Below are positions 3,843-51,520 of a DNA stretch of 64,000 nt, in pieces. The DNA is from Gammaproteobacteria bacterium (GTDB lineage: Bacteria; Pseudomonadota; Gammaproteobacteria; UBA4575). Location of the stretch: positions 606,926-670,925 of the forward strand of contig OZ241890.1 of assembly GCA_965203475.1 (NCBI GenBank), read 5' to 3'. The notes below the pieces were generated by a model that saw only the letters and a program-made list of their open reading frames with translations, was not told the DNA's origin and did not search any database. Every line of letters starts with the position of its first letter. Positions within the stretch are counted from its first letter, which is position 1. The position numbers were made by a program, and so were the translations under genes.

Positions 3843-3919
3843 GCGCCTGTAGCTCAGCTGGATAGAGTACCTGGCTTCGAACCAGGTGGTCGGGGGTTCG
3901 AATCCCTCCGGGCGCGCCA
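3843..3919 (+). tRNA. tRNA-Arg (anticodon TCG)
   Basis: Full cloverleaf: acceptor GCGCCTG/CGGGCGC, D-arm GCTCAGCTGGATAGAGT, anticodon arm CCTGG-CTTCGAA-CCAGG, T-arm GGGGGTTCGAATCCCTCC, discriminator G and CCA. Close to E. coli tRNA-Arg(ACG) apart from the anticodon. Confidence 0.85.
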
Positions 3920-3960: not shown

Positions 3961-5634
3961 ATGCTAAAAGGTTTTACGTGTTTATACTTGAGAGAGTTAA
4001 CGATTCTGGCCATTTGTTTCATTATAGTACCGCCAGTTTCAGCAGCTAATTCTCCGATACAAGAGCAAATTCGTCAAAAAATTGAAAAATTACGTAACGA
4101 TAACCAGCTATCAATATCAGGAGCAGAAATTGCGTCTAAAAAAGTGCTGCCTGAATTATATGAACGCAGATCTTATACAGCTGCGTGGGATAATCCTGTA
4201 AGAATTGACGATCTAATCCAAATGGTTGGAAGAGCAGAAGAAGAAGGCTTACTACCACATGACTATCACTACAGTGAACTATCATCTTTACGAGATACAA
4301 ATAGTAATGATGCGAGTGATATTGCAGATTTAGACATTCTTTTAACTGATAGTTTGATCCGTTATGGCTACCATCAAAATTTTGGGAAAGTAATTCCATC
4401 CGAATTGGATTCAAATTGGAACTTCACACGCAATATTGGAGATAAAGACCCGGTTAGTTTAGTGCAAGGTGCCATCGATTCCGACGGCATTCGGCAATAT
4501 ATTTCAGATGTACTTGAGAGAGGTCCCTATTATCGGCGATTAAAAAAATTGTTGGCCGAATATCGTATGCGTGCTGCTAGTGAAGAGGCAGATATACCTA
4601 CGATTCCTGCAGGTCCAGCTTTAAAAAAAGGAATGAACGATTCGAGAGTTTCAATAGTAAGGAAAAGACTTATAAGTACTGGTGATTTGAGCGATAGTGA
4701 TGTATTGGATCCAAATTTATTTGATGAAACGTTAGAGGGGGCGGTTAAACAATTTCAGAAAAATGCAAATATTGCTATTGATGGAATTGTGGGTCCAGGA
4801 ACATTGGCGTTACTGAATCCTACGTTGCAAAGTCGTATCGACCAGCTGCGTGTGAATATGGAACGTATTCGATGGATATTTCGCGATATACGTGACAACA
4901 AAGATTTTGTAATCGTGAATATTGCCGATTTTAAAACAGCATTTGTACGTGATCATAAAGTCGTCTGGGAAACAAAATCACAAGTTGGGCGTACGTATTA
5001 CAAAACTCCTGTTTTTCGTGCAGATATGGAATATGCACAATTTAATCCAACGTGGACGATTCCGCCAGGTATTCTTCGACGAGATATCATTCCAAAAATT
5101 AAAGTAGATCCTGGCAGTTTGGCTGCAAACGACATGCGGTTAATAGATAATAAAACAGGCAAAGTGGTAGATCCTGCGACCTTGGACTGGTCAAAATTAG
5201 AAGGAAAAGGATTTCCGTATCAAGTTGTGCAAGCTCCTGGCCCTAAAAATCCATTAGGCTTAGTAAAATTTATTTTTCCAAATCCTCATTTTGTTTATTT
5301 GCATGATACAACTGCAAAAGATAAATTTTCTGAAGATGTAAGGGCATTTAGTGCAGGTTGTATTCGCATTCAGAAACCGTTTGAGTTTGCAGAATTATTG
5401 CTAAATGATCCAGAGTGGAATCAGACAACAATACAGAAAACCTTAGATTCTAAAAAAATTAAAACAGTATATTTGAAAGAGAAAATTCCGGTTTTGGTAC
5501 TTTATTGGACTGTCGTCGCGACGAATGAGCACGAGGCTAGATTTTTGCCAGATATATATGAAAGAGATCTGGCTATACTGAAGGAATTAAATGAACCATT
5601 TAAGCCTTTTAAGTTGAAGGGTGTAACTCATTGA
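3961..5634 (+). CDS. L,D-transpeptidase (YcbB/LdtD family) with peptidoglycan-binding domain
   Basis: N-terminal signal sequence, PG-binding-like region, YkuD catalytic region with YLHDT...AFSAGCIRI (His/Cys motif). Confidence 0.8.
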   Translation: MLKGFTCLYLRELTILAICFIIVPPVSAANSPIQEQIRQKIEKLRNDNQLSISGAEIASKKVLPELYERRSYTAAWDNPVRIDDLIQMVGRAEEEGLLPHDYHYSELSSLRDTNSNDASDIADLDILLTDSLIRYGYHQNFGKVIPSELDSNWNFTRNIGDKDPVSLVQGAIDSDGIRQYISDVLERGPYYRRLKKLLAEYRMRAASEEADIPTIPAGPALKKGMNDSRVSIVRKRLISTGDLSDSDVLDPNLFDETLEGAVKQFQKNANIAIDGIVGPGTLALLNPTLQSRIDQLRVNMERIRWIFRDIRDNKDFVIVNIADFKTAFVRDHKVVWETKSQVGRTYYKTPVFRADMEYAQFNPTWTIPPGILRRDIIPKIKVDPGSLAANDMRLIDNKTGKVVDPATLDWSKLEGKGFPYQVVQAPGPKNPLGLVKFIFPNPHFVYLHDTTAKDKFSEDVRAFSAGCIRIQKPFEFAELLLNDPEWNQTTIQKTLDSKKIKTVYLKEKIPVLVLYWTVVATNEHEARFLPDIYERDLAILKELNEPFKPFKLKGVTH

Positions 5635-5639
5635 CAGGT

Positions 5640-6500
5640 TGAGTATAGCGCTGATTAAAAGTTATTTATTGATTGTACTTCTTCAACCCAAGAACAGCCT
5701 GTATAAAATTGGGTAACTAAAACTATTTGTTGAGATATTATTTCTAATGGTAAAGCTATTGCTCTTGCAGAAATGGAAGGAATTCGTGGATTGTTACGGC
5801 ATCCTTTATAGGCCTCTAATACACTAGAGACCTATATTGGTGCATCTATTTTTATAATACTAAAGTTTGGAGCACAATTCATTTTTCATCAACAGCAGTA
5901 CGCAAAAAAGATATTTCTCAAGTAAAAGTAGAGTTAGTAGAAAATGATGCCAAGCTGATGAGTGAATCATTAATCATTAGTTTAGGATAAGAATTCGTTC
6001 TCCTTTTTTTAAATTATATGTTGCGTGAAGACACAAATTCCATGTTGCATGGTTTATGTATTTTCATTGCTGTTTGCAATCGATAAAATAATCTAAATGA
6101 ATTTTCTAGTGATGGTTACTCATTATTTCCAGATAGCTCTTTAATTGATGAAAAAGATTGGTGTGAATGTTGTTTTAAGCATGATTTAGCGTATTGGTGT
6201 GGAGATATATATGAAAGTGTAAAAATGCTGATTTAATAGTAAAGTAATGTATATTCAATAAAACTCAAAACGAACAACTAGCACAAATTATGTACAACAG
6301 TGTAAGTTTTGATGGTAGCCCTTATTTTTATAATTGATATCGTTGGGAATATGGATGGTCTTACCATGGAAAGTATAAGACTTTAAGTGAGAAGGAATTA
6401 AAACAAGCAACGACTTAAAGAAAATTTTTTAACAGTAAAGATTCAAATTATTGCAACTCTGAGATAACGCAGTAATTTTTGTCCTTGATTTAAAATTCCT
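5640..6500. pseudogene. Degraded gene remnants (frame-shifted ORF fragments, including a Cys-rich fragment DWCECCFKHDLAYWCG)
   Basis: About 0.9 kb without an intact ORF in an otherwise gene-dense window. Several 20-50 codon open stretches lack start codons. Confidence 0.35.
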
Positions 6501-6531
6501 TGAAAAACAATATCTTTTGAAACTGTTGAAA

Positions 6532-6572
6532 GTTCTCTATAAGTTCTCTATTATGAGAACTTATGGAGAACA
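6532..6572 (+). promoter_or_regulatory. Candidate LexA operator: two tandem GTTCTC half-sites followed by two GAGAAC half-sites (nested palindromes), overlapping the lexA RBS
   Basis: AGTTCTCTAT-AAGTTCTCTAT-TATGAGAAC-TTATGGAGAAC ends immediately before the lexA start at 6575. Confidence 0.45.
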
Positions 6573-6574
6573 TT

Positions 6575-7165
6575 ATGCTAACCGAGCGGGAACAAGCTAC
6601 GCTCCAGTTCATTACTGACTATCTTGCTAAGTACCGTAAAGCGCCTTTGCTTATCGAGATTGCACAAGGTTTGGGTATTCACTCCAAAGGCGTAGTGCAT
6701 CGTTATTTATCTGTGCTAGAAGAGCAGGGCTATATCCGCCGGCAACAAAGGCACCGTGGCATCGAACTAGTGGGCCATCCTAATCATGACGAGGTGCCGT
6801 TGTTGGGGCGCATTGCGGCCGGCAAACCTATCGAAGCGATTGAAGATCGTGAATTAATAAATTTTACACATTTATTGGGAGGTCCTAATCGATTTGTGTT
6901 ACAGGTAAAAGGACATTCCATGATTGATGAAGGTATTCGTAGTGGTGATCTTGTCGTTATTGAACAAGCCAGTCATGCGCGGAGCAATCAAATTGTTGTG
7001 GCACTTATTGATGATCATGAAGCTACACTTAAGCGCATTAAATTTCCAGATCGAAATACAATTCGCTTAATTCCTGCGAATAAAAATATGCAGCCTAAAG
7101 AATACCCAACTGAGCGTGTAACCATACAAGGTGTATTGGTTGGGCAGGTAAGAATGTACACCTGA
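6575..7165 (+). CDS. lexA: LexA repressor (S24 peptidase with N-terminal wHTH)
   Basis: Colinear with E. coli LexA: Ala-Gly cleavage site in IAAGKP, Ser in GHSM and Lys in LKRIK. The ATG at 6575 is preferred over 6563 because of the GGAG RBS. Confidence 0.85.
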   Translation: MLTEREQATLQFITDYLAKYRKAPLLIEIAQGLGIHSKGVVHRYLSVLEEQGYIRRQQRHRGIELVGHPNHDEVPLLGRIAAGKPIEAIEDRELINFTHLLGGPNRFVLQVKGHSMIDEGIRSGDLVVIEQASHARSNQIVVALIDDHEATLKRIKFPDRNTIRLIPANKNMQPKEYPTERVTIQGVLVGQVRMYT

Positions 7166-7179
7166 CTTTATGTCGCTAA

Positions 7180-8403
7180 GTGATGAAACGCTGGGATCGT
7201 GCGATTGTATTTATCGATATGGATGCTTTTTTTGCAAGCATTGAGCAGCATGATCAGCCCGAATTACGTGGACAACCTATTGGTATTACAAATGGATTAA
7301 CGGGCACATGTTTTATTACTTGTTCTTATGAAGCTAGAGCGTATGGCATTAAAACGGCAACAAGAATTAAAAAAGCAAAAGAATTGTGTTCTGATGTAAT
7401 TCAAGTTCCAGCTCGACCTTATCGCTATGCAGAAGTTTCCACGAATATTATGTCTGCACTGCAAAACATTACGCCGGATATTGAAGTTTTTTCTGTAGAT
7501 GAAGCTTTTTTAGACATTACTCATTGCCAGGGCATTTATGGAGATCCTGCAAAAATGGGCACTCTTATTAAAAGTACAGTGTATGAGGCAGGAGGAGTAT
7601 CCTGCAGTATTGGCATTAGTGGGGACAAAACCACTGCCAAAGTTGCAGCCAAACAAGATAAACCTGATGGATGTGTAGTGGTTCCACCTTGGGAAGCTAG
7701 AAATTTTCTTAAAAATAAACCGGTGACTGATTTATGTGGTGTTGCAAAGGGTATTGGTCGATATCTAGGGGACCGTGGTGTTGAATTATGTGGCGACATG
7801 CAGCATTTACCCATCGGTGAACTGGGACATCGTTTTGGAAACCCAGGGCGGCGTATTTGGTATATGGCACAGGGTTTGGATCCTGAACCTTTACAACCGA
7901 ATGTTGCAGCACCTAAGTCAATTGGTCATGGCAAAATTATGCCGCCCAACACCAAGCAACATTCTGTATTGAAAATATATTTGCATCATATGGCAGAAAA
8001 AGTAGGTGCGCGATTGCGCAAACATCATTTTGAAGCACAGCACTTTTTTATTGGTTTTCGAACCGAACAGGGCTGGCTAGCCAAAAAAATGAAAACAGTG
8101 GATCCAACAGATGATAGTCAGCAGATTAAGGCATTGGCCAATGATTTGCTCAATCACTACTGGCAGGGGCAGGGATGTTTTCAGGTACAGATTACTGCAC
8201 TTGATCCGAAAGACCAGGGTAATCAACTGTCATTATTTCGACAGAAAGACATTAAACGTGAGCAAATTAACCAGACCATGGATCGTATTAACGAGCGCTA
8301 TGGAGAATTTACTCTGGCCCCTGCTGTGTTATTGAATCGCTCGAACATGCCCAATGTGATTGCACCTGCATGGAAACCAGCAGGTCATAGAAAGACAGTA
8401 TGA
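7180..8403 (+). CDS. Y-family DNA polymerase (DinB/Pol IV-like, catalytic residues intact)
   Basis: IDMDAFFASIE and SVDEAFLDIT catalytic motifs and a KVAAKQDKPDG motif. Lies 15 nt downstream of lexA. Confidence 0.8.
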   Translation: MMKRWDRAIVFIDMDAFFASIEQHDQPELRGQPIGITNGLTGTCFITCSYEARAYGIKTATRIKKAKELCSDVIQVPARPYRYAEVSTNIMSALQNITPDIEVFSVDEAFLDITHCQGIYGDPAKMGTLIKSTVYEAGGVSCSIGISGDKTTAKVAAKQDKPDGCVVVPPWEARNFLKNKPVTDLCGVAKGIGRYLGDRGVELCGDMQHLPIGELGHRFGNPGRRIWYMAQGLDPEPLQPNVAAPKSIGHGKIMPPNTKQHSVLKIYLHHMAEKVGARLRKHHFEAQHFFIGFRTEQGWLAKKMKTVDPTDDSQQIKALANDLLNHYWQGQGCFQVQITALDPKDQGNQLSLFRQKDIKREQINQTMDRINERYGEFTLAPAVLLNRSNMPNVIAPAWKPAGHRKTV

Positions 8404-8448
8404 GCACATGATCGAAATTCAAAGTAAGCCAGGACATCGCAAGACGGT

Positions 8449-8895
8449 ATGAGTAGTGGTGTGTTGTATACAATCGAGGAACAAGATAGAAGAATCTATT
8501 TTCACAATCCACTTGCCACACTTCCAGTCATTACCAAGCAAGACAATATCATCATGATGCCTTGGGGCAGGCGAAAAAAACAAAAAGGTATGCTGCCATT
8601 AGGAGGCTGGGCCAGATTAGAGGGGATATATAAAGGCCAGTGGGATCGGTGGTTGCCAAAATCTGTAAAAATTCCAGTCAAATCATTTATGGAAAAATCA
8701 CATGATGGTTCGAATCACTGGTTTGATTTAGTAAAAGGGCAATGTTTACAAGGATTGGTTGCACGTAACAAATATGAGCAACGAGTATATGTTGTTACCA
8801 TAGAACCAGAGCAAGAGTATGCGTGGTATTACCGATGGCCTCGTATTATAAATAAAGGTTATAAAAATAATTTAGAAGTTTTCGATGTAAATTAG
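8449..8895 (+). CDS. Hypothetical protein (148 aa), third gene of the lexA-polymerase cassette
   Basis: ORF 45 nt after the polymerase on the same strand. No recognisable domain. Confidence 0.45.
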   Translation: MSSGVLYTIEEQDRRIYFHNPLATLPVITKQDNIIMMPWGRRKKQKGMLPLGGWARLEGIYKGQWDRWLPKSVKIPVKSFMEKSHDGSNHWFDLVKGQCLQGLVARNKYEQRVYVVTIEPEQEYAWYYRWPRIINKGYKNNLEVFDVN

Positions 8896-9098
8896 AAATT
8901 CAAAAAAATAATCAGATCAAAAGTCATTACCATTAATGCACTATAAAACCCACGTTTGTCTTATTTATCTTTAAAAAACAACCATCTATACATACAAATA
9001 ATGACTCGGTAACTTACATAAATACAATGAGTTATATCGCGGATAGGATGAAGCGTAAGTAATGGAAAATACCATTGTGATTGTGAAAAGGAGTTTTC

Positions 9099-9284
9099 AT
9101 GATATTTGCAAAAAGTATCCAAAGGCTTTATCGGCCATCCAGATTGCGAAAGCACCGCGCAACTAATTCCGCGCATTCAAAATCAAACCAAAATACTAAA
9201 TTAAACGAGCAGCATTTGACTCGTGATCAAGTTATAGAAATATATGATTGGATTGCAAAATTGAATGCCCAGCAAAGTGCATAG
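9099..9284 (+). CDS. Small basic hypothetical protein (61 aa)
   Basis: Strong AAAGGAG RBS 7 nt upstream of the ATG. Confidence 0.25.
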   Translation: MIFAKSIQRLYRPSRLRKHRATNSAHSKSNQNTKLNEQHLTRDQVIEIYDWIAKLNAQQSA

Positions 9285-9337
9285 GATGAATCTGGGGAAC
9301 GTAAAAATATTAACTAACGCATATAAGGAAAGTTAAA

Positions 9338-9436
9338 ATGGAAGTTACACATACTATTTTAATATTTGATGTAATTGCTTTGGTTGGAATTATGGTTGCA
9401 AGTGCTGTGTACTTGTATCGTCATAAGTACCACTAA
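9338..9436 (+). CDS. 32-aa hydrophobic single-TM micro-protein candidate
   Basis: AAGGAAAG RBS. Translation is MEVTHTILIFDVIALVGIMVASAVYLYRHKYH. A terminator follows at 9494. Confidence 0.3.
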   Translation: MEVTHTILIFDVIALVGIMVASAVYLYRHKYH

Positions 9437-9493
9437 AATATTCAAAGCAAAAAAACGGGTCCAACTCCAAGCGTATCTATATACGCTTAAGAT

Positions 9494-9522
9494 AAAAAAG
9501 CCCCTATTCAGGGGCTTTTTTT
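9494..9522. terminator. Bidirectional rho-independent terminator
   Basis: AAAAAAGCCCCT-ATTC-AGGGGCTTTTTTT, placed between convergent transcription units. Confidence 0.6.
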
Positions 9523-9538
9523 CATTAAAACTAACTGA

Positions 9539-10117
9539 TTAAACAGAAGAAAATACGGTGCTATGTAATGCACTGTATAAAAATTCATGAAAAATTTCAG
9601 TTTCATGAGTACCGATGGTTTGACGAATAGCGTTAATAAGCTGATCTGTATAGTTCATACCATCTTCAGCAATTTTTTGGCCTTTTAAAGACAGTGATAA
9701 ATTAACTACACGTCTATCTTTTTTGCTGTGGTCACGGATTACTAAGCCTTTAGCCTCTAATAACTCAAGTTGGCGGCTAATTGTGCTTGAATCAGTATAG
9801 GTAGTTTCAGATATTTTGGCAGGTGTTGCCGCAAGATTTAAATATATAGATTTTAATATTCGCCATTGTTGATAGTTGACTTTATGTTTTTTTAAATAAG
9901 TAGTGATTTTTTTTCGGGAAATACTATTGATGGCTTCTATATAGGTAATGATGTCAGCATCAAATGGATTTACGCTTGGCTTATGTTTATTTAACGTTGC
10001 TATGATTTCTTCTTGAGGGGTAATCATGGTTTGTCGCATAAACAGGTTAAATTCATTTAGTTGGTACAGCAGGTTATAGGTACTTAATAAATAAGGAGAC
10101 CGATTAAAAGAGGCCAA
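9539..10117 (-). CDS. MarR-family transcriptional regulator
   Basis: Winged-helix region QQWRILKSI...TDSSTISRQLELLEAKGLVIRDHSKKDRRVVNLSLSLKG. The true start may be internal. Confidence 0.7.
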   Translation of the reverse strand: MASFNRSPYLLSTYNLLYQLNEFNLFMRQTMITPQEEIIATLNKHKPSVNPFDADIITYIEAINSISRKKITTYLKKHKVNYQQWRILKSIYLNLAATPAKISETTYTDSSTISRQLELLEAKGLVIRDHSKKDRRVVNLSLSLKGQKIAEDGMNYTDQLINAIRQTIGTHETEIFHEFLYSALHSTVFSSV

Positions 10118-42209: not shown

Positions 42210-42243
42210 ATTGACTAGCCTAAGAACATAGAGAGAATACATT

Positions 42244-42606
42244 ATGAGTGAACCTGCGTTGGATGAAATTAAATTAAAACTTAGAGAGTTTGCACAAAAG
42301 CGCGACTGGGAACAGTTTCATAGCCCCAAGAATTTATCCATGGCGCTTTCTGTTGAAGCATCGGAAATTGTTGAACATTTTCAATGGATGACAGAACAAG
42401 AGAGCTCAGAATTAACCGCGAAGCGTCATGCGGCTGTGGCGTTTGAAATGGCAGATGTATTTATATTTTTATTGCGCCTGTCTGATATATTAAATATCGA
42501 CCTTATGGAAGTTACCAAAAGAAAAGTCGAACTCAATGAAAAGCGCTATCCCATTGATTTGGTAAAGGGTAGTGCTAAAAAGCATTCTGAATATGAGGAA
42601 TCGTGA
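42244..42606 (+). CDS. MazG-like nucleoside triphosphate pyrophosphohydrolase (small single-domain form)
   Basis: EASEIVEHFQW and EMADVFIFLLRL motifs of the all-alpha NTP pyrophosphatase fold. Confidence 0.65.
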   Translation: MSEPALDEIKLKLREFAQKRDWEQFHSPKNLSMALSVEASEIVEHFQWMTEQESSELTAKRHAAVAFEMADVFIFLLRLSDILNIDLMEVTKRKVELNEKRYPIDLVKGSAKKHSEYEES

Positions 42607-46213: not shown

Positions 46214-47719
46214 TTGACTAAGCAGGAAATTACATCTTTACCCTCGATTGTGGTTGGGAAAAGTGATGCCGTACAAACACTTTTCCTCAAGCGTGCCAAT
46301 CGACATGGGTTAGTTGCGGGGGCTACGGGCACAGGCAAAACGGTTACTTTGCAAATTTTGGCAGAAGGTTTTTCTCAGGTCGGTGTACCGGTGTTTGCAG
46401 CTGATATCAAAGGTGATTTAAGTGGTATTAGCCAAGCCATAACCGCCAAGCCCAAACTTGTGGAGCGAGCTGCTAAGACTGGTGTTGAGAACTACTCTCC
46501 ACGTGGATTTCCGACCCTATTTTGGGACATCTTTGGTAAGCAAGGACATCCAGTAAGGACCACGATTTCGGAAATGGGCCCTCTCTTGTTGTCGAGGTTA
46601 CTAGAACTCAATGATACGCAAGAAGGTGTGCTGAATATTGCTTTTAAGATGGCCGATGATGAAGGGCTACTATTGTTAGATTTCAAGGATTTGCGAGCAA
46701 TTCTTAATCATGTAGGCGAGAATTCATCTGCGATTACGGTGGATTATGGGAATGTAAGTAAGCAGTCGATAGGTGCGATTCAACGAAGATTGTTAGTGCT
46801 TGAACAGCAGGGCGGCAAGAAATTTTTTGGTGAACCGGCATTACAGCTCAATGACTTAATGCGTACCAACACAGATGGAATGGGTTATATCAATTTATTT
46901 GCTGCAGATGAGTTGATGCAAAATCCAAGGTTGTATTCGACATTTTTGCTATGGCTATTATCCGAGCTATTTGAGGAGCTTCCTGAGGTTGGCGATCCGG
47001 AAAAACCAAAATTGGTGTTTTTCTTTGATGAAGCGCATTTACTATTTAAAGATGCTCCGAAAGCACTCATCCAGAAAGTGGAGCAAGTAGTGCGGTTGAT
47101 TCGTTCAAAAGGAGTTGGGGTGTATTTTGTGACTCAGAATCCTGTGGATATTCCTGATGAGATTTTGGGACAGTTGGGGAATCGTATTCAGCATGCATTA
47201 CGGGCGTATACTCCACGCGATAAAAAAGCTGTAAAAGTTGCAGCAACCACCTTCAGAGCCAATCCAGACCTAAATACAGTTCAGGTGATTACAGAACTTG
47301 GAGTGGGGGAAGCATTGGTTTCAGTGCTTGATCCTGAAGGGGTGCCTACCATTGTTCAACAAACAAAAATTCGACCTCCAGAATCTCGTATGGGGCCTGC
47401 AACGAAGTCGGAACGAAAAATCATATTTGAAAAAAGTCCTATTAAAGACGTATACGATAAAGCAATAGATCGGGAAAGTGCATCAGAATTACTCAAACAG
47501 CGTGCAGAACAAGCAGCGAAACACGCCAAAGAAATGGAAAAAGAACGAGAATATAAAGCAGCAAAATCCAAGAAAAAATCTCGTCAATCAACGCGTAGAA
47601 AAACTCGTCGCGAATCAACAACACAAACTGTGATAAAAAGTGCAACAAAAATTGCAACTTCAAGAATGGGTCAAGCAATTATTCGTGGCATTATGGGTTC
47701 AATATTTAAAGGAAAATAA
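46214..47719 (+). CDS. HerA-like / DUF853 (YjgR family) P-loop NTPase
   Basis: Walker A GATGTGKT. Walker B FFFDEAH. Lys/Arg-rich C-terminal tail. Confidence 0.75.
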   Translation: MTKQEITSLPSIVVGKSDAVQTLFLKRANRHGLVAGATGTGKTVTLQILAEGFSQVGVPVFAADIKGDLSGISQAITAKPKLVERAAKTGVENYSPRGFPTLFWDIFGKQGHPVRTTISEMGPLLLSRLLELNDTQEGVLNIAFKMADDEGLLLLDFKDLRAILNHVGENSSAITVDYGNVSKQSIGAIQRRLLVLEQQGGKKFFGEPALQLNDLMRTNTDGMGYINLFAADELMQNPRLYSTFLLWLLSELFEELPEVGDPEKPKLVFFFDEAHLLFKDAPKALIQKVEQVVRLIRSKGVGVYFVTQNPVDIPDEILGQLGNRIQHALRAYTPRDKKAVKVAATTFRANPDLNTVQVITELGVGEALVSVLDPEGVPTIVQQTKIRPPESRMGPATKSERKIIFEKSPIKDVYDKAIDRESASELLKQRAEQAAKHAKEMEKEREYKAAKSKKKSRQSTRRKTRRESTTQTVIKSATKIATSRMGQAIIRGIMGSIFKGK

Positions 47720-49279: not shown

Positions 49280-51520
49280 TTAATTTGTAATGCGACGATA
49301 AATGTCAGAAACTTTATACGGAAGCTTGTCTACTTTATCAACGACGGCAAAATTTACTGCGCCATACATATGTTTTAAGTAATCCATCGCTTCTTGGTCA
49401 ATCGTAATGCAGAACGGATGAATTCCTAAAAATTTTGCCTCAATTAATGCGCGTCGAGTATCTTCAATTCCATAGGGGCCACGATAACCGTCCCTATCGT
49501 CTGGTCTGCCGTCCGATAGTGTTATCAACAGCTTCGTGCGGGCTTCTATTTGGTTGAGCAGCATCGTCAAATGTCGAATTGCGGCACCCATGCGGGTGTA
49601 ATCTTGCGGCTCAATACCATTGATTCGTGCTTTTATTTCATCGTTGTATGTTTCTTTAAAATTCTTAATCTTGTATAGCTCGCAGCTTTCGTGGGTAGCG
49701 CCTGAAAATCCATAGATTGCATATCGATCACCTAAGGTTTCTAAAGCTTCACACAATAATATGAGTGATACTCGTTCCATTTCGTTGACCCAGCCCGTAG
49801 TAGAGCCACTCATGTCAATCATAAACATTACAGCAATGTTGCGATCCATTTTTCGAGATTTTATGAATAAATTTTGCGAGGCTTCTAAACCAATTTGTGT
49901 ATCGCTATATGCTTCGATGACAGCATCTAGATCTATATCTTCACCATAGGGTTGGTGTTTTAGTCTTTTATCATCTTCTCGTAAAGCCTCAAAGGTTCGG
50001 TGTAAATGTTTTAATAAAGATCGATGTTTGAATAATGTTTCATCTACAAAATTGTTATATACAGGCTTTATGTCGTGCTCTCTTAGATGACACCATTCTT
50101 TACGATATCTTTGCCTAGAATGATCCCACTCATCGTATAAATACACTTTATCTTTATCGATTGTGTTTGAATCGTCTAGGTTAGGTTGATCAGTAGTATA
50201 CTCAGTTTCAATTTCTTCGTTTTGAATTTCTGTTATTAAGTAAGGATCTGGAATTTCTCCTAGGTCCTGTAAAATAGACTGTAAAAGTTGTTGAATATCC
50301 TCTGGAGGGTCAATTGCTTGTTCGTTGAAGTTTAATTGGATTGAAAAACCTTCTGGTGAATCCTCGTCTTCAATTTCTTCAATTGAAAATCTTTCACTGT
50401 CTTCTAATTCAGTATTTGTGTATACCACATTGGTATCTAATTCTTGTTGTAGTTCTGTCAGTCGTTGCTGAAGTTGTTCTTGCTCTTTTTCGATTCTTGA
50501 TTGAATTGTCTTCCAAGTTCTTCTCGGCTCTAAGGTTCCTTGATAAATTTTATCTTCAGGAAACAAATTTTCTTTGTAAACAGATTCTAAAAAAAACATT
50601 GTGTCTTTAACGGTTGCATCTTTTTGTTGCAATACCTCATGAGCGCGTTTCCAGTTTTTTGATAATGAGTCTGTGTTTAGTGTCCCACTAATATTTTTCA
50701 TAACACGTGCTACTCCGGGTAACTCACGTGCAATGCATGCATCTAAGCGAATTGTTTCAAGTTTATGAAATATAGATTGTGCACGTTCAGAATCTTTGAA
50801 GGTTTTAACTAAAGCATCTACATTCATTCGCCATGTTCCAAACCAAGTTTGCGCCCATTGGTGAACTGTCATTGCTTTATATAAAGTAAAATTTTCATCC
50901 TGATTGTTGTAGGTTGATATAAATTCAGGAAGTCGAATAGATTCTGTATCACAAAAATGTTGATCACTAATTTCAATATTTAGACGACGCCCGCTAAGTC
51001 CAATGACGAAGCTTTCAAGAATTCTTGAGATGTCATTAATGGATACACTCGCAGGGGCATGAGATATGGACGCAACATATTCTTTAACCTTGTGTAGCTG
51101 TTCTATAGCACTATTTAAGCCATTTTCTTGGTGATTTTTTAATAACTTAGAAATCCAGTCATCCCATTGACTTTCGTCTAGGGTTTGTAAACCTACATGG
51201 CCTAAATGACAAAAATTAAATCCGAGCTCAATATCGGTGTTGCATAATTGTTCTACTGTGGATAAAAAACGATCTTGGTCCACTTTAGGAAATTCCGCTA
51301 AATTCTTTGCAGGCTCAAATACTCCTCGTTGTGCGGAAAGAACAGGCTCAACAAGTAATTCCATACGTAATTGCAATTCGCGAATGCCCATTCCACCATA
51401 AGAAGCACTGGTAGTTAATCCTTGTCGTTCCAAGGATTTTATAAATCCACCTTCTTCACTGTAAGCACGTATTTCTACTTTTTCACGCTTCTTTTTAGGT
51501 TTCTTTTTTTTCCAAAACAT
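49280..51520 (-). CDS. NorD/CbbO-like large vWA-domain protein (polybasic N-terminus)
   Basis: C-terminal MIDMSGST (DxSxS MIDAS). DGRPDD motif. About 750 aa, as for CbbO/NorD. Confidence 0.6.
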   Translation of the reverse strand: MFWKKKKPKKKREKVEIRAYSEEGGFIKSLERQGLTTSASYGGMGIRELQLRMELLVEPVLSAQRGVFEPAKNLAEFPKVDQDRFLSTVEQLCNTDIELGFNFCHLGHVGLQTLDESQWDDWISKLLKNHQENGLNSAIEQLHKVKEYVASISHAPASVSINDISRILESFVIGLSGRRLNIEISDQHFCDTESIRLPEFISTYNNQDENFTLYKAMTVHQWAQTWFGTWRMNVDALVKTFKDSERAQSIFHKLETIRLDACIARELPGVARVMKNISGTLNTDSLSKNWKRAHEVLQQKDATVKDTMFFLESVYKENLFPEDKIYQGTLEPRRTWKTIQSRIEKEQEQLQQRLTELQQELDTNVVYTNTELEDSERFSIEEIEDEDSPEGFSIQLNFNEQAIDPPEDIQQLLQSILQDLGEIPDPYLITEIQNEEIETEYTTDQPNLDDSNTIDKDKVYLYDEWDHSRQRYRKEWCHLREHDIKPVYNNFVDETLFKHRSLLKHLHRTFEALREDDKRLKHQPYGEDIDLDAVIEAYSDTQIGLEASQNLFIKSRKMDRNIAVMFMIDMSGSTTGWVNEMERVSLILLCEALETLGDRYAIYGFSGATHESCELYKIKNFKETYNDEIKARINGIEPQDYTRMGAAIRHLTMLLNQIEARTKLLITLSDGRPDDRDGYRGPYGIEDTRRALIEAKFLGIHPFCITIDQEAMDYLKHMYGAVNFAVVDKVDKLPYKVSDIYRRITN

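What the first reader, a model, noticed from the sequence alone, without database searches (positions are those of the whole stretch)
6532..6572. Unusual operator candidate: two direct GTTCTC half-sites then two GAGAAC half-sites forming nested palindromes over the lexA RBS
The sequence AGTTCTCTAT AAGTTCTCTAT TATGAGAAC TTATGGAGAAC gives GTTCTC at 6532 and 6543, and GAGAAC at 6555 and 6567. The inner pair is a perfect 6-6-6 palindrome and the outer pair flanks it. The classical gammaproteobacterial CTGT-N8-ACAG box is absent upstream of lexA. GTTC/GAAC cores recall the alphaproteobacterial (GTTC-N7-GTTC) and Gram-positive (GAAC-N4-GTTC) LexA boxes, which would fit a foreign origin of this LexA. 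The site covers the -10/RBS region, consistent with autorepression.
Basis: seen in the sequence. Interest (0 to 1): 0.6.

Follow-up and report, generated by a model that had tools for sequence, protein, structure and literature searches.

The report
Direct-repeat LexA operator at lexA promoter
The four GTTCTC/GAGAAC hexamers are real and are best read as two LexA (DNA-damage repressor) binding sites laid over the lexA promoter, of a direct-repeat type conserved in many little-studied Gammaproteobacteria and not found described in the papers I could search.

Summary
That is four of the window's 19 such hexamers within 40 bp; 2000 resamples never gave more than two.

The hexamers sit on the best sigma-70 promoter match in the region: TTGAAA (6526) - 17 nt - TATTAT (6554). 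They run into the ribosome-binding site of a bona fide lexA.

In 81 lexA promoters from relatives 46-86% identical in LexA, the spacing inside each direct pair is always N5. The gap between the two pairs varies from 6 to 22, and 18 promoters carry only one pair. The unit is therefore the direct repeat aGTTCTC-nnnAn-GTTCTC (= GTTC-N7-GTTC), present twice in convergent orientation. It is not a nested palindrome.

The same box precedes recA, umuD-like and dinB-like genes in metagenome contigs. It is absent from 481 kb of lexA flanks.

This LexA is a separate lineage (about 35% identity to both alphaproteobacterial and E. coli LexA). Its recognition helix is closer to the alphaproteobacterial one.

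Conserved neighbouring genes argue against recent foreign origin.

LexA binding itself is inferred, not shown.

The operon continues into a Y-family polymerase and a compact SRAP-fold protein.

The parts
6526..6531 (+). -35 hexamer TTGAAA
   Evidence: Best sigma-70-like match in 6200-9600: TTGAAA-17-TATTAT, 10 of 12. TTGAAA or TTGAAT directly precedes unit 1 in 39 of the 62 related promoters that have both units.
6532..6548 (+). Operator unit 1: direct repeat GTTCTC-TATAA-GTTCTC (= GTTC-N7-GTTC). It fills the 17-nt spacer between -35 and -10.
   Evidence: PWM score 26.0 bits. A comparable unit is present in 72 of 81 lexA promoters with invariant N5 spacing.
6549..6554 (+). -10 hexamer TATTAT, lying between the two operator units
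   Evidence: In related promoters the gap after unit 1 usually starts with TATnnT (TATTAT 13, TATTCT 8, TATGAT 6, TATGCT 6 and others).
6555..6571 (-). Operator unit 2: GAGAAC-TTATG-GAGAAC on the + strand (GTTCTC-CATAA-GTTCTC on the - strand). It covers the predicted transcription start region and the Shine-Dalgarno GGAGA (6565-6569).
   Evidence: PWM score 26.8 bits. Present in 70 of 81 lexA promoters. It ends 3-6 nt before the start codon in 54 of 62.
6575..7165 (+). lexA, 196 aa from ATG 6575 (the longest ORF starts at ATG 6563, inside unit 2). Winged-helix DNA-binding domain plus S24 peptidase domain. Ala82-Gly83 cleavage site, Ser115 and Lys153 are conserved.
   Evidence: TIGR00498 lexA 143.7 bits against a cutoff of 110.95. 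Pfam LexA_DNA_bind plus Peptidase_S24. Most homologs start at MLT. Invariant A81 A82 G83 S115 K153 in alignment A1. Aligned to E. coli LexA.
7180..8403 (+). Y-family (DinB-like) translesion DNA polymerase, 14 nt after lexA, presumably co-transcribed
   Evidence: Pfam IMS 5.5e-42 and IMS_C. It scores below the NCBIfam Pol IV cutoffs. A significant Y-family polymerase match lies downstream of lexA in 58 of 80 related loci; 56 are clear orthologs (45% identity or more) and two are weak.
8449..8895 (+). 148-aa compact SRAP-fold protein, third gene of the operon. The window copy has Ser where relatives have the nucleophile Cys2.

Best explanation
The 40-bp element is the autoregulatory operator of a lexA / Y-family polymerase / SRAP-like operon. 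It consists of two copies of a 17-bp direct-repeat LexA box, aGTTCTC-nnnAn-GTTCTC (core GTTC-N7-GTTC, 11-bp period), placed in convergent orientation. Unit 1 fills the spacer between the -35 and -10 hexamers. Unit 2 covers the transcription start region and the ribosome-binding site. Inferred mechanism: one LexA dimer binds each unit and shuts out or blocks RNA polymerase. After DNA damage, RecA-stimulated self-cleavage at Ala82-Gly83 (Ser115/Lys153 dyad) releases LexA and the operon is expressed. The same box type appears to control recA and other translesion-synthesis genes in organisms with this box, so it is probably the SOS box of a large, mostly uncultured set of Gammaproteobacteria. Shown here: the sequence, its promoter overlap, its conservation and fixed internal spacing, its specificity for SOS gene promoters, and the integrity of the LexA catalytic and DNA-binding domains. 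Inferred: that LexA is the binding protein, the one-dimer-per-direct-repeat stoichiometry (by analogy with alphaproteobacterial LexA), and damage inducibility.
For: (1) Cluster statistics: 4 hexamers in 40 bp against a maximum of 2 in 2000 resamples. These are the only two GTTC-N7-GTTC matches in 64 kb. (2) Promoter overlap: TTGAAA-17-TATTAT at 6526-6554. (3) Footprint: of 81 lexA promoters (LexA 46-86% identical), 72 have the forward unit, 70 the reverse unit and 62 both, while flanking sequence is unalignable. Exact hexamer pairs occur only at spacer 5 (49 forward, 50 reverse), whereas the inverted spacing is 6-22. Both units give the same consensus, including a conserved A at spacer position 4. 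(4) Specificity: no other site of 17 bits or more in 481 kb flanking those lexA genes, and none in the rest of the window above shuffle noise. (5) Regulon: a capped, unbiased metagenome scan for the box gave 120 loci, mostly chance. Their downstream genes include lexA three times, recA, a umuD-like gene plus Y-family polymerase, and a dinB-like gene. Four further recA loci keep an identical box as the only strong hit in 14-21 kb each. (6) The protein is a genuine LexA with cleavage site and catalytic dyad. Its helix 3, SKGVVHRYL, resembles alphaproteobacterial SKSGIHRLI rather than E. coli SPNAAEEHL. (7) Alphaproteobacterial lexA promoters show the same two-box layout around the -10. (8) LexA binding to direct repeats is established for Alphaproteobacteria and Balneolaeota (PMC4951493, PMC3323433, PMC7739468).
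Against: No binding experiment exists. The recA, umuD-like and dinB-like examples come from metagenome contigs that I could not tie to genomes carrying this LexA type, and the five recA loci are close relatives of one another. No second site was found in the 64-kb window, so regulon membership in this particular organism is untested. I could not check whether the genome also encodes a second, E. coli-type LexA. Part of the conservation of the last hexamer may reflect its overlap with the Shine-Dalgarno sequence (GGAGA).
Confidence: 0.85

Rival explanations
1. Nested palindromes. One LexA dimer binds the inner inverted pair GTTCTC-N6-GAGAAC and another binds the outer pair, as with classical palindromic SOS boxes.
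For: In the window and its close relatives the inner pair is a perfect 6-6-6 palindrome. 23 of 81 promoters have the N6 gap.
Against: In the wider family the inverted spacing is 6, 9-18, 21 or 22. 18 promoters have only one direct-repeat unit. The recA, umuD-like and dinB-like sites are single direct repeats with no inverted partner. A dimer cannot span half-sites whose distance varies that much.
Confidence: 0.06
2. The 17-nt inverted arms act as a nucleic-acid hairpin (RNA attenuator or terminator, or DNA cruciform) rather than as protein-binding sites.
For: As RNA, 6526-6580 folds into a perfect 17-bp stem, -26.7 kcal/mol, z = -8.8.
Against: The left arm lies between -35 and -10, upstream of the predicted transcription start, so it would not be in the lexA mRNA. 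No U-tract follows. Across the family only the hexamers are conserved. The spacers of the two arms are complementary at 0.49 of positions against 0.42 for shuffled partners, and that excess is explained by close relatives. Many promoters have one arm only.
Confidence: 0.03
3. The box is bound by a different regulator (not LexA) that happens to control lexA and recA.
For: No direct binding data. A MarR-family gene lies nearby (9539-10117).
Against: The box follows lexA genes across very different gene neighbourhoods. It tracks a LexA family defined by a shared recognition helix (the IxSKGV[VI]HRY pattern used). It has the core and spacing of an experimentally established LexA box type. Self-regulation of lexA is near-universal (established knowledge).
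Confidence: 0.04

Closest known systems
Alphaproteobacterial LexA box, GTTC-N7-GTTC direct repeat (Rhodobacter, Rhizobium, Caulobacter; also Acidobacterium capsulatum by lateral transfer of the alpha lexA)
   Same: Same GTTC core, same 7-nt spacing (11-bp period) and same direct-repeat structure. Same layout at lexA: two boxes flanking the -10, the first starting right after the -35 (L201, L203, L205). Similar recognition helix, with SK..(V/I)HR shared.
   Different: The half-site is a hexamer, aGTTCTC, rather than tGTTC. A PWM built from the gamma sites scores the three alpha lexA promoters at 8 bits or less. Polarity is mirrored: GTTC..GTTC / GAAC..GAAC here, GAAC..GAAC / GTTC..GTTC in the three alpha promoters. 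The LexA is only 34-35% identical, is 196 aa long, and lacks the roughly 40-aa linker insertion of the 234-239-aa alpha proteins. The hosts are Gammaproteobacteria.
E. coli-type SOS box CTGT-N8-ACAG with tandem boxes at lexA (most Beta- and Gammaproteobacteria)
   Same: An autoregulated lexA with two adjacent operators overlapping the promoter. Same repressor family and same cleavage chemistry.
   Different: The motif is absent from the window. The structure here is a direct repeat, not a palindrome. The recognition helix differs (H42-R43 here, E44-E45 in E. coli).
Other non-canonical LexA motifs: Xanthomonadales, P. putida LexA2, Gallionellales GAACGaaCGTTC, Verrucomicrobia TGTTC-N4-GAACA, Balneolaeota direct repeat (PMC4951493, PMC7739468)
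   Same: Lineage-specific change of LexA specificity, often tied to translesion-polymerase operons. GTTC/GAAC cores recur. Direct-repeat recognition has arisen more than once.
   Different: None of these has the GTTCTC-N5-GTTCTC consensus. None is described for these gammaproteobacterial lineages in the literature I could search.
SRAP / YedK / HMCES (for the third gene of the operon)
   Different: About 135-148 aa against about 215. Not detected by Pfam PF02586 or by hhalign. The window copy has Ser2 and Tyr in place of Cys2 and His.

Membership tests
LexA autoregulatory SOS operator (generic) | Lies in the promoter or 5' region of lexA and overlaps RNA polymerase binding elements | tested here: met
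   Units at 6532-6548 and 6555-6571 bracket the -10 of TTGAAA-17-TATTAT and reach the RBS.
LexA autoregulatory SOS operator (generic) | The cognate gene encodes a LexA with a winged-HTH domain, an Ala-Gly cleavage site and a Ser/Lys dyad | tested here: met
   TIGR00498 above cutoff. A82-G83, S115 and K153 are invariant in A1. Aligned to E. coli LexA.
LexA autoregulatory SOS operator (generic) | Motif conserved upstream of orthologous lexA genes while the flanks diverge | tested here: met
   80 of 81 promoters carry at least one unit and 62 carry both.
LexA autoregulatory SOS operator (generic) | The same motif sits upstream of other SOS genes (recA, translesion polymerases) | tested here: inconclusive
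   Found at recA (L122, L207-L210), at a umuD-like gene plus Y-family polymerase (L121) and at a dinB-like gene (L139) in metagenome contigs. Those contigs are not linked to a genome with this lexA, and no second site exists in the window.
LexA autoregulatory SOS operator (generic) | Specific binding by purified LexA, and derepression after DNA damage | not testable with these tools
   Needs EMSA or footprinting and expression assays.
Alphaproteobacterial-type LexA box (GTTC-N7-GTTC) | Direct repeat of GTTC with a 7-nt spacer | tested here: met
   GTTC-N7-GTTC at 6532-6546 and, on the - strand, at 6557-6571. The spacing is invariant in the family.
Alphaproteobacterial-type LexA box (GTTC-N7-GTTC) | The binding protein belongs to the alphaproteobacterial LexA clade | tested here: not met
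   34-35% identity to four alpha LexA proteins, against 36% to E. coli LexA. No linker insertion. No formal phylogeny was made.
Alphaproteobacterial-type LexA box (GTTC-N7-GTTC) | Same extended half-site and same orientation at lexA | tested here: not met
   Alpha sites read GAACA/TGTTC and score 8 bits or less with the gamma PWM. Polarity is mirrored (only three alpha promoters were examined).
E. coli-type SOS box (CTGT-N8-ACAG) | Palindrome CTGT-N8-ACAG upstream of lexA | tested here: not met
   No match anywhere in the window.
Gram-positive Cheo box (GAAC-N4-GTTC) | Inverted repeat GAAC-N4-GTTC | tested here: not met
   The orientation here is GTTC...GAAC with a gap of 6 or more between hexamers, and that gap is variable.
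SRAP domain (third gene of the operon) | SRAP fold | tested here: met
   [not shown]
SRAP domain (third gene of the operon) | Catalytic Cys2 (with Glu and His) | tested here: not met
   The window copy begins MSSG and has WYYRWPR. More distant relatives have MCGG and HDRWPR. Equivalence of the Glu and His positions rests on motif order by eye, not on a residue-level superposition.

The most novel reading that the evidence does not exclude
A large assemblage of non-enteric Gammaproteobacteria uses a direct-repeat SOS box, GTTCTC-N5-GTTCTC, read by a LexA lineage with an alpha-like recognition helix. By their record titles these lineages include Woeseia, Acidiferrobacteraceae, Thiohalomonadales, Granulosicoccaceae, tubeworm symbionts, HTCC5015 and several uncultured groups. 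If this state is ancestral and not convergent, the GTTC-N7-GTTC architecture predates the Alpha/Gamma split. The textbook CTGT-N8-ACAG box would then be a later invention inside Beta/Gammaproteobacteria, which would redraw the accepted history of LexA motif evolution. The operon would also add a previously unrecognised minimal SRAP family, with a Cys2-to-Ser variant, to the core SOS cassette.
Probability: 0.3. Interest if true: 0.7.

Novelty: new variant of a known kind. Interest (0 to 1): 0.55.

Why it matters
LexA is the standard example of a transcription factor whose binding motif changes between bacterial groups. The field's summary is that Beta- and Gammaproteobacteria use CTGT-N8-ACAG, with a few exceptions.

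A second, widespread gammaproteobacterial motif would have three consequences:
1. SOS regulons in many environmentally important but uncultured or poorly studied lineages become predictable from sequence.
2. It offers a natural intermediate for studying how a symmetric dimer comes to read direct repeats.
3. It bears on which LexA motif was ancestral in Proteobacteria.

It is directly testable by EMSA with one purified protein. Cultured carriers such as Woeseia or HTCC5015 could be used for in vivo work.

Tried and rejected
1. Nested-palindrome model: rejected on spacing statistics.
2. Hairpin model: the window folds well, but there is little covariation across the family and the position relative to the promoter is wrong.
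3. Other sites in the window: the best is 42222-42238 at 16.3 bits, inside shuffle noise. No GTTCTC-N6-GAGAAC elsewhere beyond two 2-mismatch hits at chance level.
4. Other sites within 3 kb of 80 related lexA genes: none.
5. Other classical SOS genes in the window: not found among the ten ORFs annotated, including most of the largest.
6. Metagenome scan for the box: mostly chance hits, including 11-bp minisatellites (L099, L104, L131). Only the SOS-gene subset was informative.
7. Recent foreign origin: GC of the operon is 0.41-0.43 against 0.32-0.39 for the flanks. That difference is small, and synteny in relatives argues against it.
8. Literature: seven full-text searches found no description of this motif in Gammaproteobacteria. 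The GTTCTC+LexA search was swamped by noise. Subscription-only papers are not covered.
9. ORF148: Pfam, NCBIfam, a PDB profile search and hhalign against YedK were all negative. The single-sequence AF2 model was useless (pLDDT 31.5). Only the AF2 model built on A4 resolved the fold.
10. Exact-sequence look-up of the window's polymerase found no record, so the source genome was not identified.

Full report
**Observation**

The stretch 6530-6571 reads AAGTTCTCTATAAGTTCTCTATTATGAGAACTTATGGAGAAC.
- GTTCTC starts at 6532 and 6543.
- The window holds 19 such hexamers on both strands, which is the chance level overall. Four of them lie within 40 bp.
- In 2000 first-order Markov resamples of the window, no 40-bp stretch held more than two.
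- The exact inner palindrome GTTCTC-N6-GAGAAC is unique in the window.
- The only two GTTC-N7-GTTC matches in 64 kb are these.
- There is no CTGT-N8-ACAG anywhere in the window.

**Context**

The downstream gene is a genuine lexA.
- It scores 143.7 bits on TIGR00498 (cutoff 110.95) and has Pfam LexA_DNA_bind plus Peptidase_S24.
- Most homologs start at MLT, so the likely start is ATG 6575 (196 aa), preceded by GGAGA at 6565-6569.
- The cleavage site Ala82-Gly83 and the Ser115/Lys153 dyad are invariant in the family and align with those of E. coli LexA.

The best sigma-70-like match in 6200-9600 is TTGAAA (6526) - 17 nt - TATTAT (6554), 10 of 12 positions.
- The first two hexamers and their spacer fill the -35/-10 spacer exactly.
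- The other two run from just after the -10 to the ribosome-binding site.

Two more genes follow lexA.
- A Y-family polymerase gene starts 14 nt after lexA (7180-8403; IMS domain 5.5e-42).
- A 148-aa ORF follows at 8449-8895.

**Related sequences**

A genome scan with a LexA alignment returned 80 loci.
- LexA in these loci is 46-86% identical to the window protein.
- All loci are from Gammaproteobacteria or unclassified Pseudomonadota by record title.
- The titles include uncultured 'Thiotrichales', HTCC5015, Thiohalomonadaceae, Granulosicoccaceae, Woeseia, Acidiferrobacteraceae, Candidatus Tenderia, tubeworm endosymbionts and 'Legionellales' MAGs.
- The scan pattern included the recognition helix (IxSKGV[VI]HRY), so the set is defined by that helix.

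The upstream regions are otherwise unalignable, yet the hexamers persist. Counting the window, the 81 promoters break down as follows:

| Units present (3 or fewer mismatches) | Promoters |
|---|---|
| Forward unit GTTCTC-N5-GTTCTC, with or without the reverse unit | 72 |
| Reverse unit GAGAAC-N5-GAGAAC, with or without the forward unit | 70 |
| Both units | 62 |
| One unit only | 18 |
| Neither unit | 1 |

**What the unit is**

- Exact hexamer pairs in direct orientation occur only at spacer 5 (49 forward and 50 reverse of 81 promoters).
- The distance between the inner GTTCTC and GAGAAC is 6, 9-18, 21 or 22.
- The two units give the same consensus, aGTTCTC-nnnAn-GTTCTC, including the conserved A in the spacer.
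- The conserved element is therefore a 17-bp direct repeat with an 11-bp period, used twice in convergent orientation around the -10.
- The inner palindrome of the window is a by-product of the short 6-nt gap in its sub-clade.
- TTGAAA or TTGAAT precedes unit 1 in 39 of 62 promoters. The gap usually begins TATnnT. Unit 2 ends 3-6 nt before the start codon in 54 of 62.

**Specificity and regulon**

A PWM built from these sites scores the two window units at 26.0 and 26.8 bits.
- The next best window hit is 16.3 bits at 42222-42238, within the range of shuffles.
- The 481 kb flanking the 80 lexA genes contain no other site of 17 bits or more.

An exact-pattern scan of metagenome contigs (AGTTCTCNNNANGTTCTC) stopped at 120 loci, most of them chance matches.
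- The genes directly downstream of intergenic hits include lexA three times, recA once, a umuD-like S24 protein followed by a Y-family polymerase once, and a dinB-like gene once.
- The recA (L122) has a gamma-type N-terminus.
- Four further loci encode RecA 90-94% identical to it. Each keeps GTTCTCTTTATGTTCTC about 50-66 nt upstream of recA, and it is the only strong PWM hit in 14-21 kb.
- This supports an SOS regulon, not just a self-contained cassette. However, the contigs are not tied to genomes with this lexA, and the recA loci are mutually close.

**Relation to known LexA types**

Real alphaproteobacterial LexA sequences were retrieved from Xanthobacter, Nitratireductor, Brucella and Devosia.
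- The window protein is 34-35% identical to them and lacks their roughly 40-aa linker insertion.
- It is 36% identical to both E. coli and Thermotoga LexA. It is a separate lineage.
- BLAST bit scores are somewhat higher against alpha proteins for both domains: DNA-binding domain 43-46 against 35 bits, C-terminal domain 92-100 against 73 bits.
- Helix 3 reads SKGVVHRYL here, SKSGIHRLI in alpha and SPNAAEEHL in E. coli. The His-Arg pair occupies the positions that are Glu44-Glu45 in E. coli.

Three alpha lexA promoters show TTGCx-GAAC-N7-GAAC-(-10)-GTTC-N7-GTTC.
- This is the same two-box layout and the same core and spacing.
- The polarity is mirrored, the half-site is GAACA, and the sites score poorly with the gamma PWM.

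Published work gives GTTC-N7-GTTC as the alpha box. It notes that direct-repeat recognition arose more than once in LexA (Balneolaeota, Patescibacteria, Acidobacterium by transfer). It lists only Xanthomonadales and P. putida LexA2 as gammaproteobacterial exceptions to CTGT-N8-ACAG (PMC4951493, PMC3323433, PMC7739468). I found no description of this motif. That search covers open-access papers only.

**Origin**

- The MarR-family gene downstream is in the same place in ten relatives. The two genes upstream are conserved in L008 and L009.
- The lexA-polymerase pair is conserved in 58 of 80 loci.
- GC of the operon is only slightly above its flanks.
- Together these argue against a recent foreign acquisition.

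**Rivals**

- As RNA, the 17-nt arms would form a -26.7 kcal/mol hairpin.
- However, the left arm lies upstream of the predicted start and there is no U-tract. Spacer complementarity across the family barely exceeds shuffled partners (0.49 against 0.42), and many promoters have one arm only.
- A different binding protein cannot be excluded without experiments. It is unlikely, because the box follows this LexA family through changing neighbourhoods.

**Mechanism proposed**

- Two LexA dimers bind, one per direct repeat. They occlude the promoter core and the start/RBS region.
- RecA-stimulated self-cleavage then relieves repression of lexA, the polymerase and the third gene.
- Binding, stoichiometry and inducibility are inferred by analogy with alphaproteobacterial LexA.

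**Side result**

The third gene has no Pfam or NCBIfam match.
- It belongs to a family with 426 representative clusters.
- An AF2 model built on 50 of these has pLDDT 92.4.
- More distant members begin MCGG and end ..HDRWPR, echoing YedK's MCGR and IHDRRP.
- The window copy has MSSG and WYYRWPR, so it lacks the nucleophilic Cys2.

**Verdict**

This is a real, conserved LexA operator of an apparently undescribed direct-repeat variant. The nested-palindrome and foreign-origin parts are not supported.

Noticed in passing
[not shown]
   Followed up: yes
window 42222-42238 (-), upstream of ORF 42244-42606: AAGAACATAGAGAGAAT sits 5 nt before the ATG of a 120-aa ORF (MazG-like by eye, no NCBIfam hit). 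It is the third-best PWM hit at 16.3 bits, which is within shuffle noise. Conservation in relatives was not checked.
   Followed up: partly
L045, L050, L053, L055, L062, L067, L077, L078 (lexA promoters): In a subgroup of MAGs titled 'Legionellales' or 'Enterobacteriaceae', or simply Gammaproteobacteria, the second hexamer of unit 1 is GTACTC instead of GTTCTC (both hexamers in L067). Unit 2 keeps GAGAAC.
   Followed up: no
L201, L203, L205 (alphaproteobacterial lexA promoters): The two alpha LexA boxes flank the -10 in the mirrored order (GAAC-N7-GAAC then GTTC-N7-GTTC) compared with the gamma clade.
   Followed up: partly
P0398, P0413, P0414, P0450, P0469: The mini-SRAP domain also occurs at the C-terminus of 508-610-aa proteins. 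Their N-terminal parts have no Pfam match apart from weak HTH-like hits around residues 406-447. They are not polymerase fusions.
   Followed up: partly
window 5635-6525: About 900 bp without a long ORF lies between the L,D-transpeptidase gene and the lexA promoter. GC is 0.315 in the 5501-6500 window, and there is no Rfam hit.
   Followed up: no
window 46214-47719 (+) and 49280-51520 (-): A 501-aa protein has only weak HerA/CedD-like ATPase matches. A 746-aa ORF has no NCBIfam match at all.
   Followed up: no
L099 6283-6320, L104 357-451, L131 715-798: Unrelated metagenome contigs carry 11-bp tandem repeats (GAGAACTTTGA and similar) that mimic the box. These are false positives for any pattern scan with this motif.
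   Followed up: yes
window 3843-3919 (+): tRNA-Arg(TCG), the only RNA gene detected in the window.
   Followed up: no
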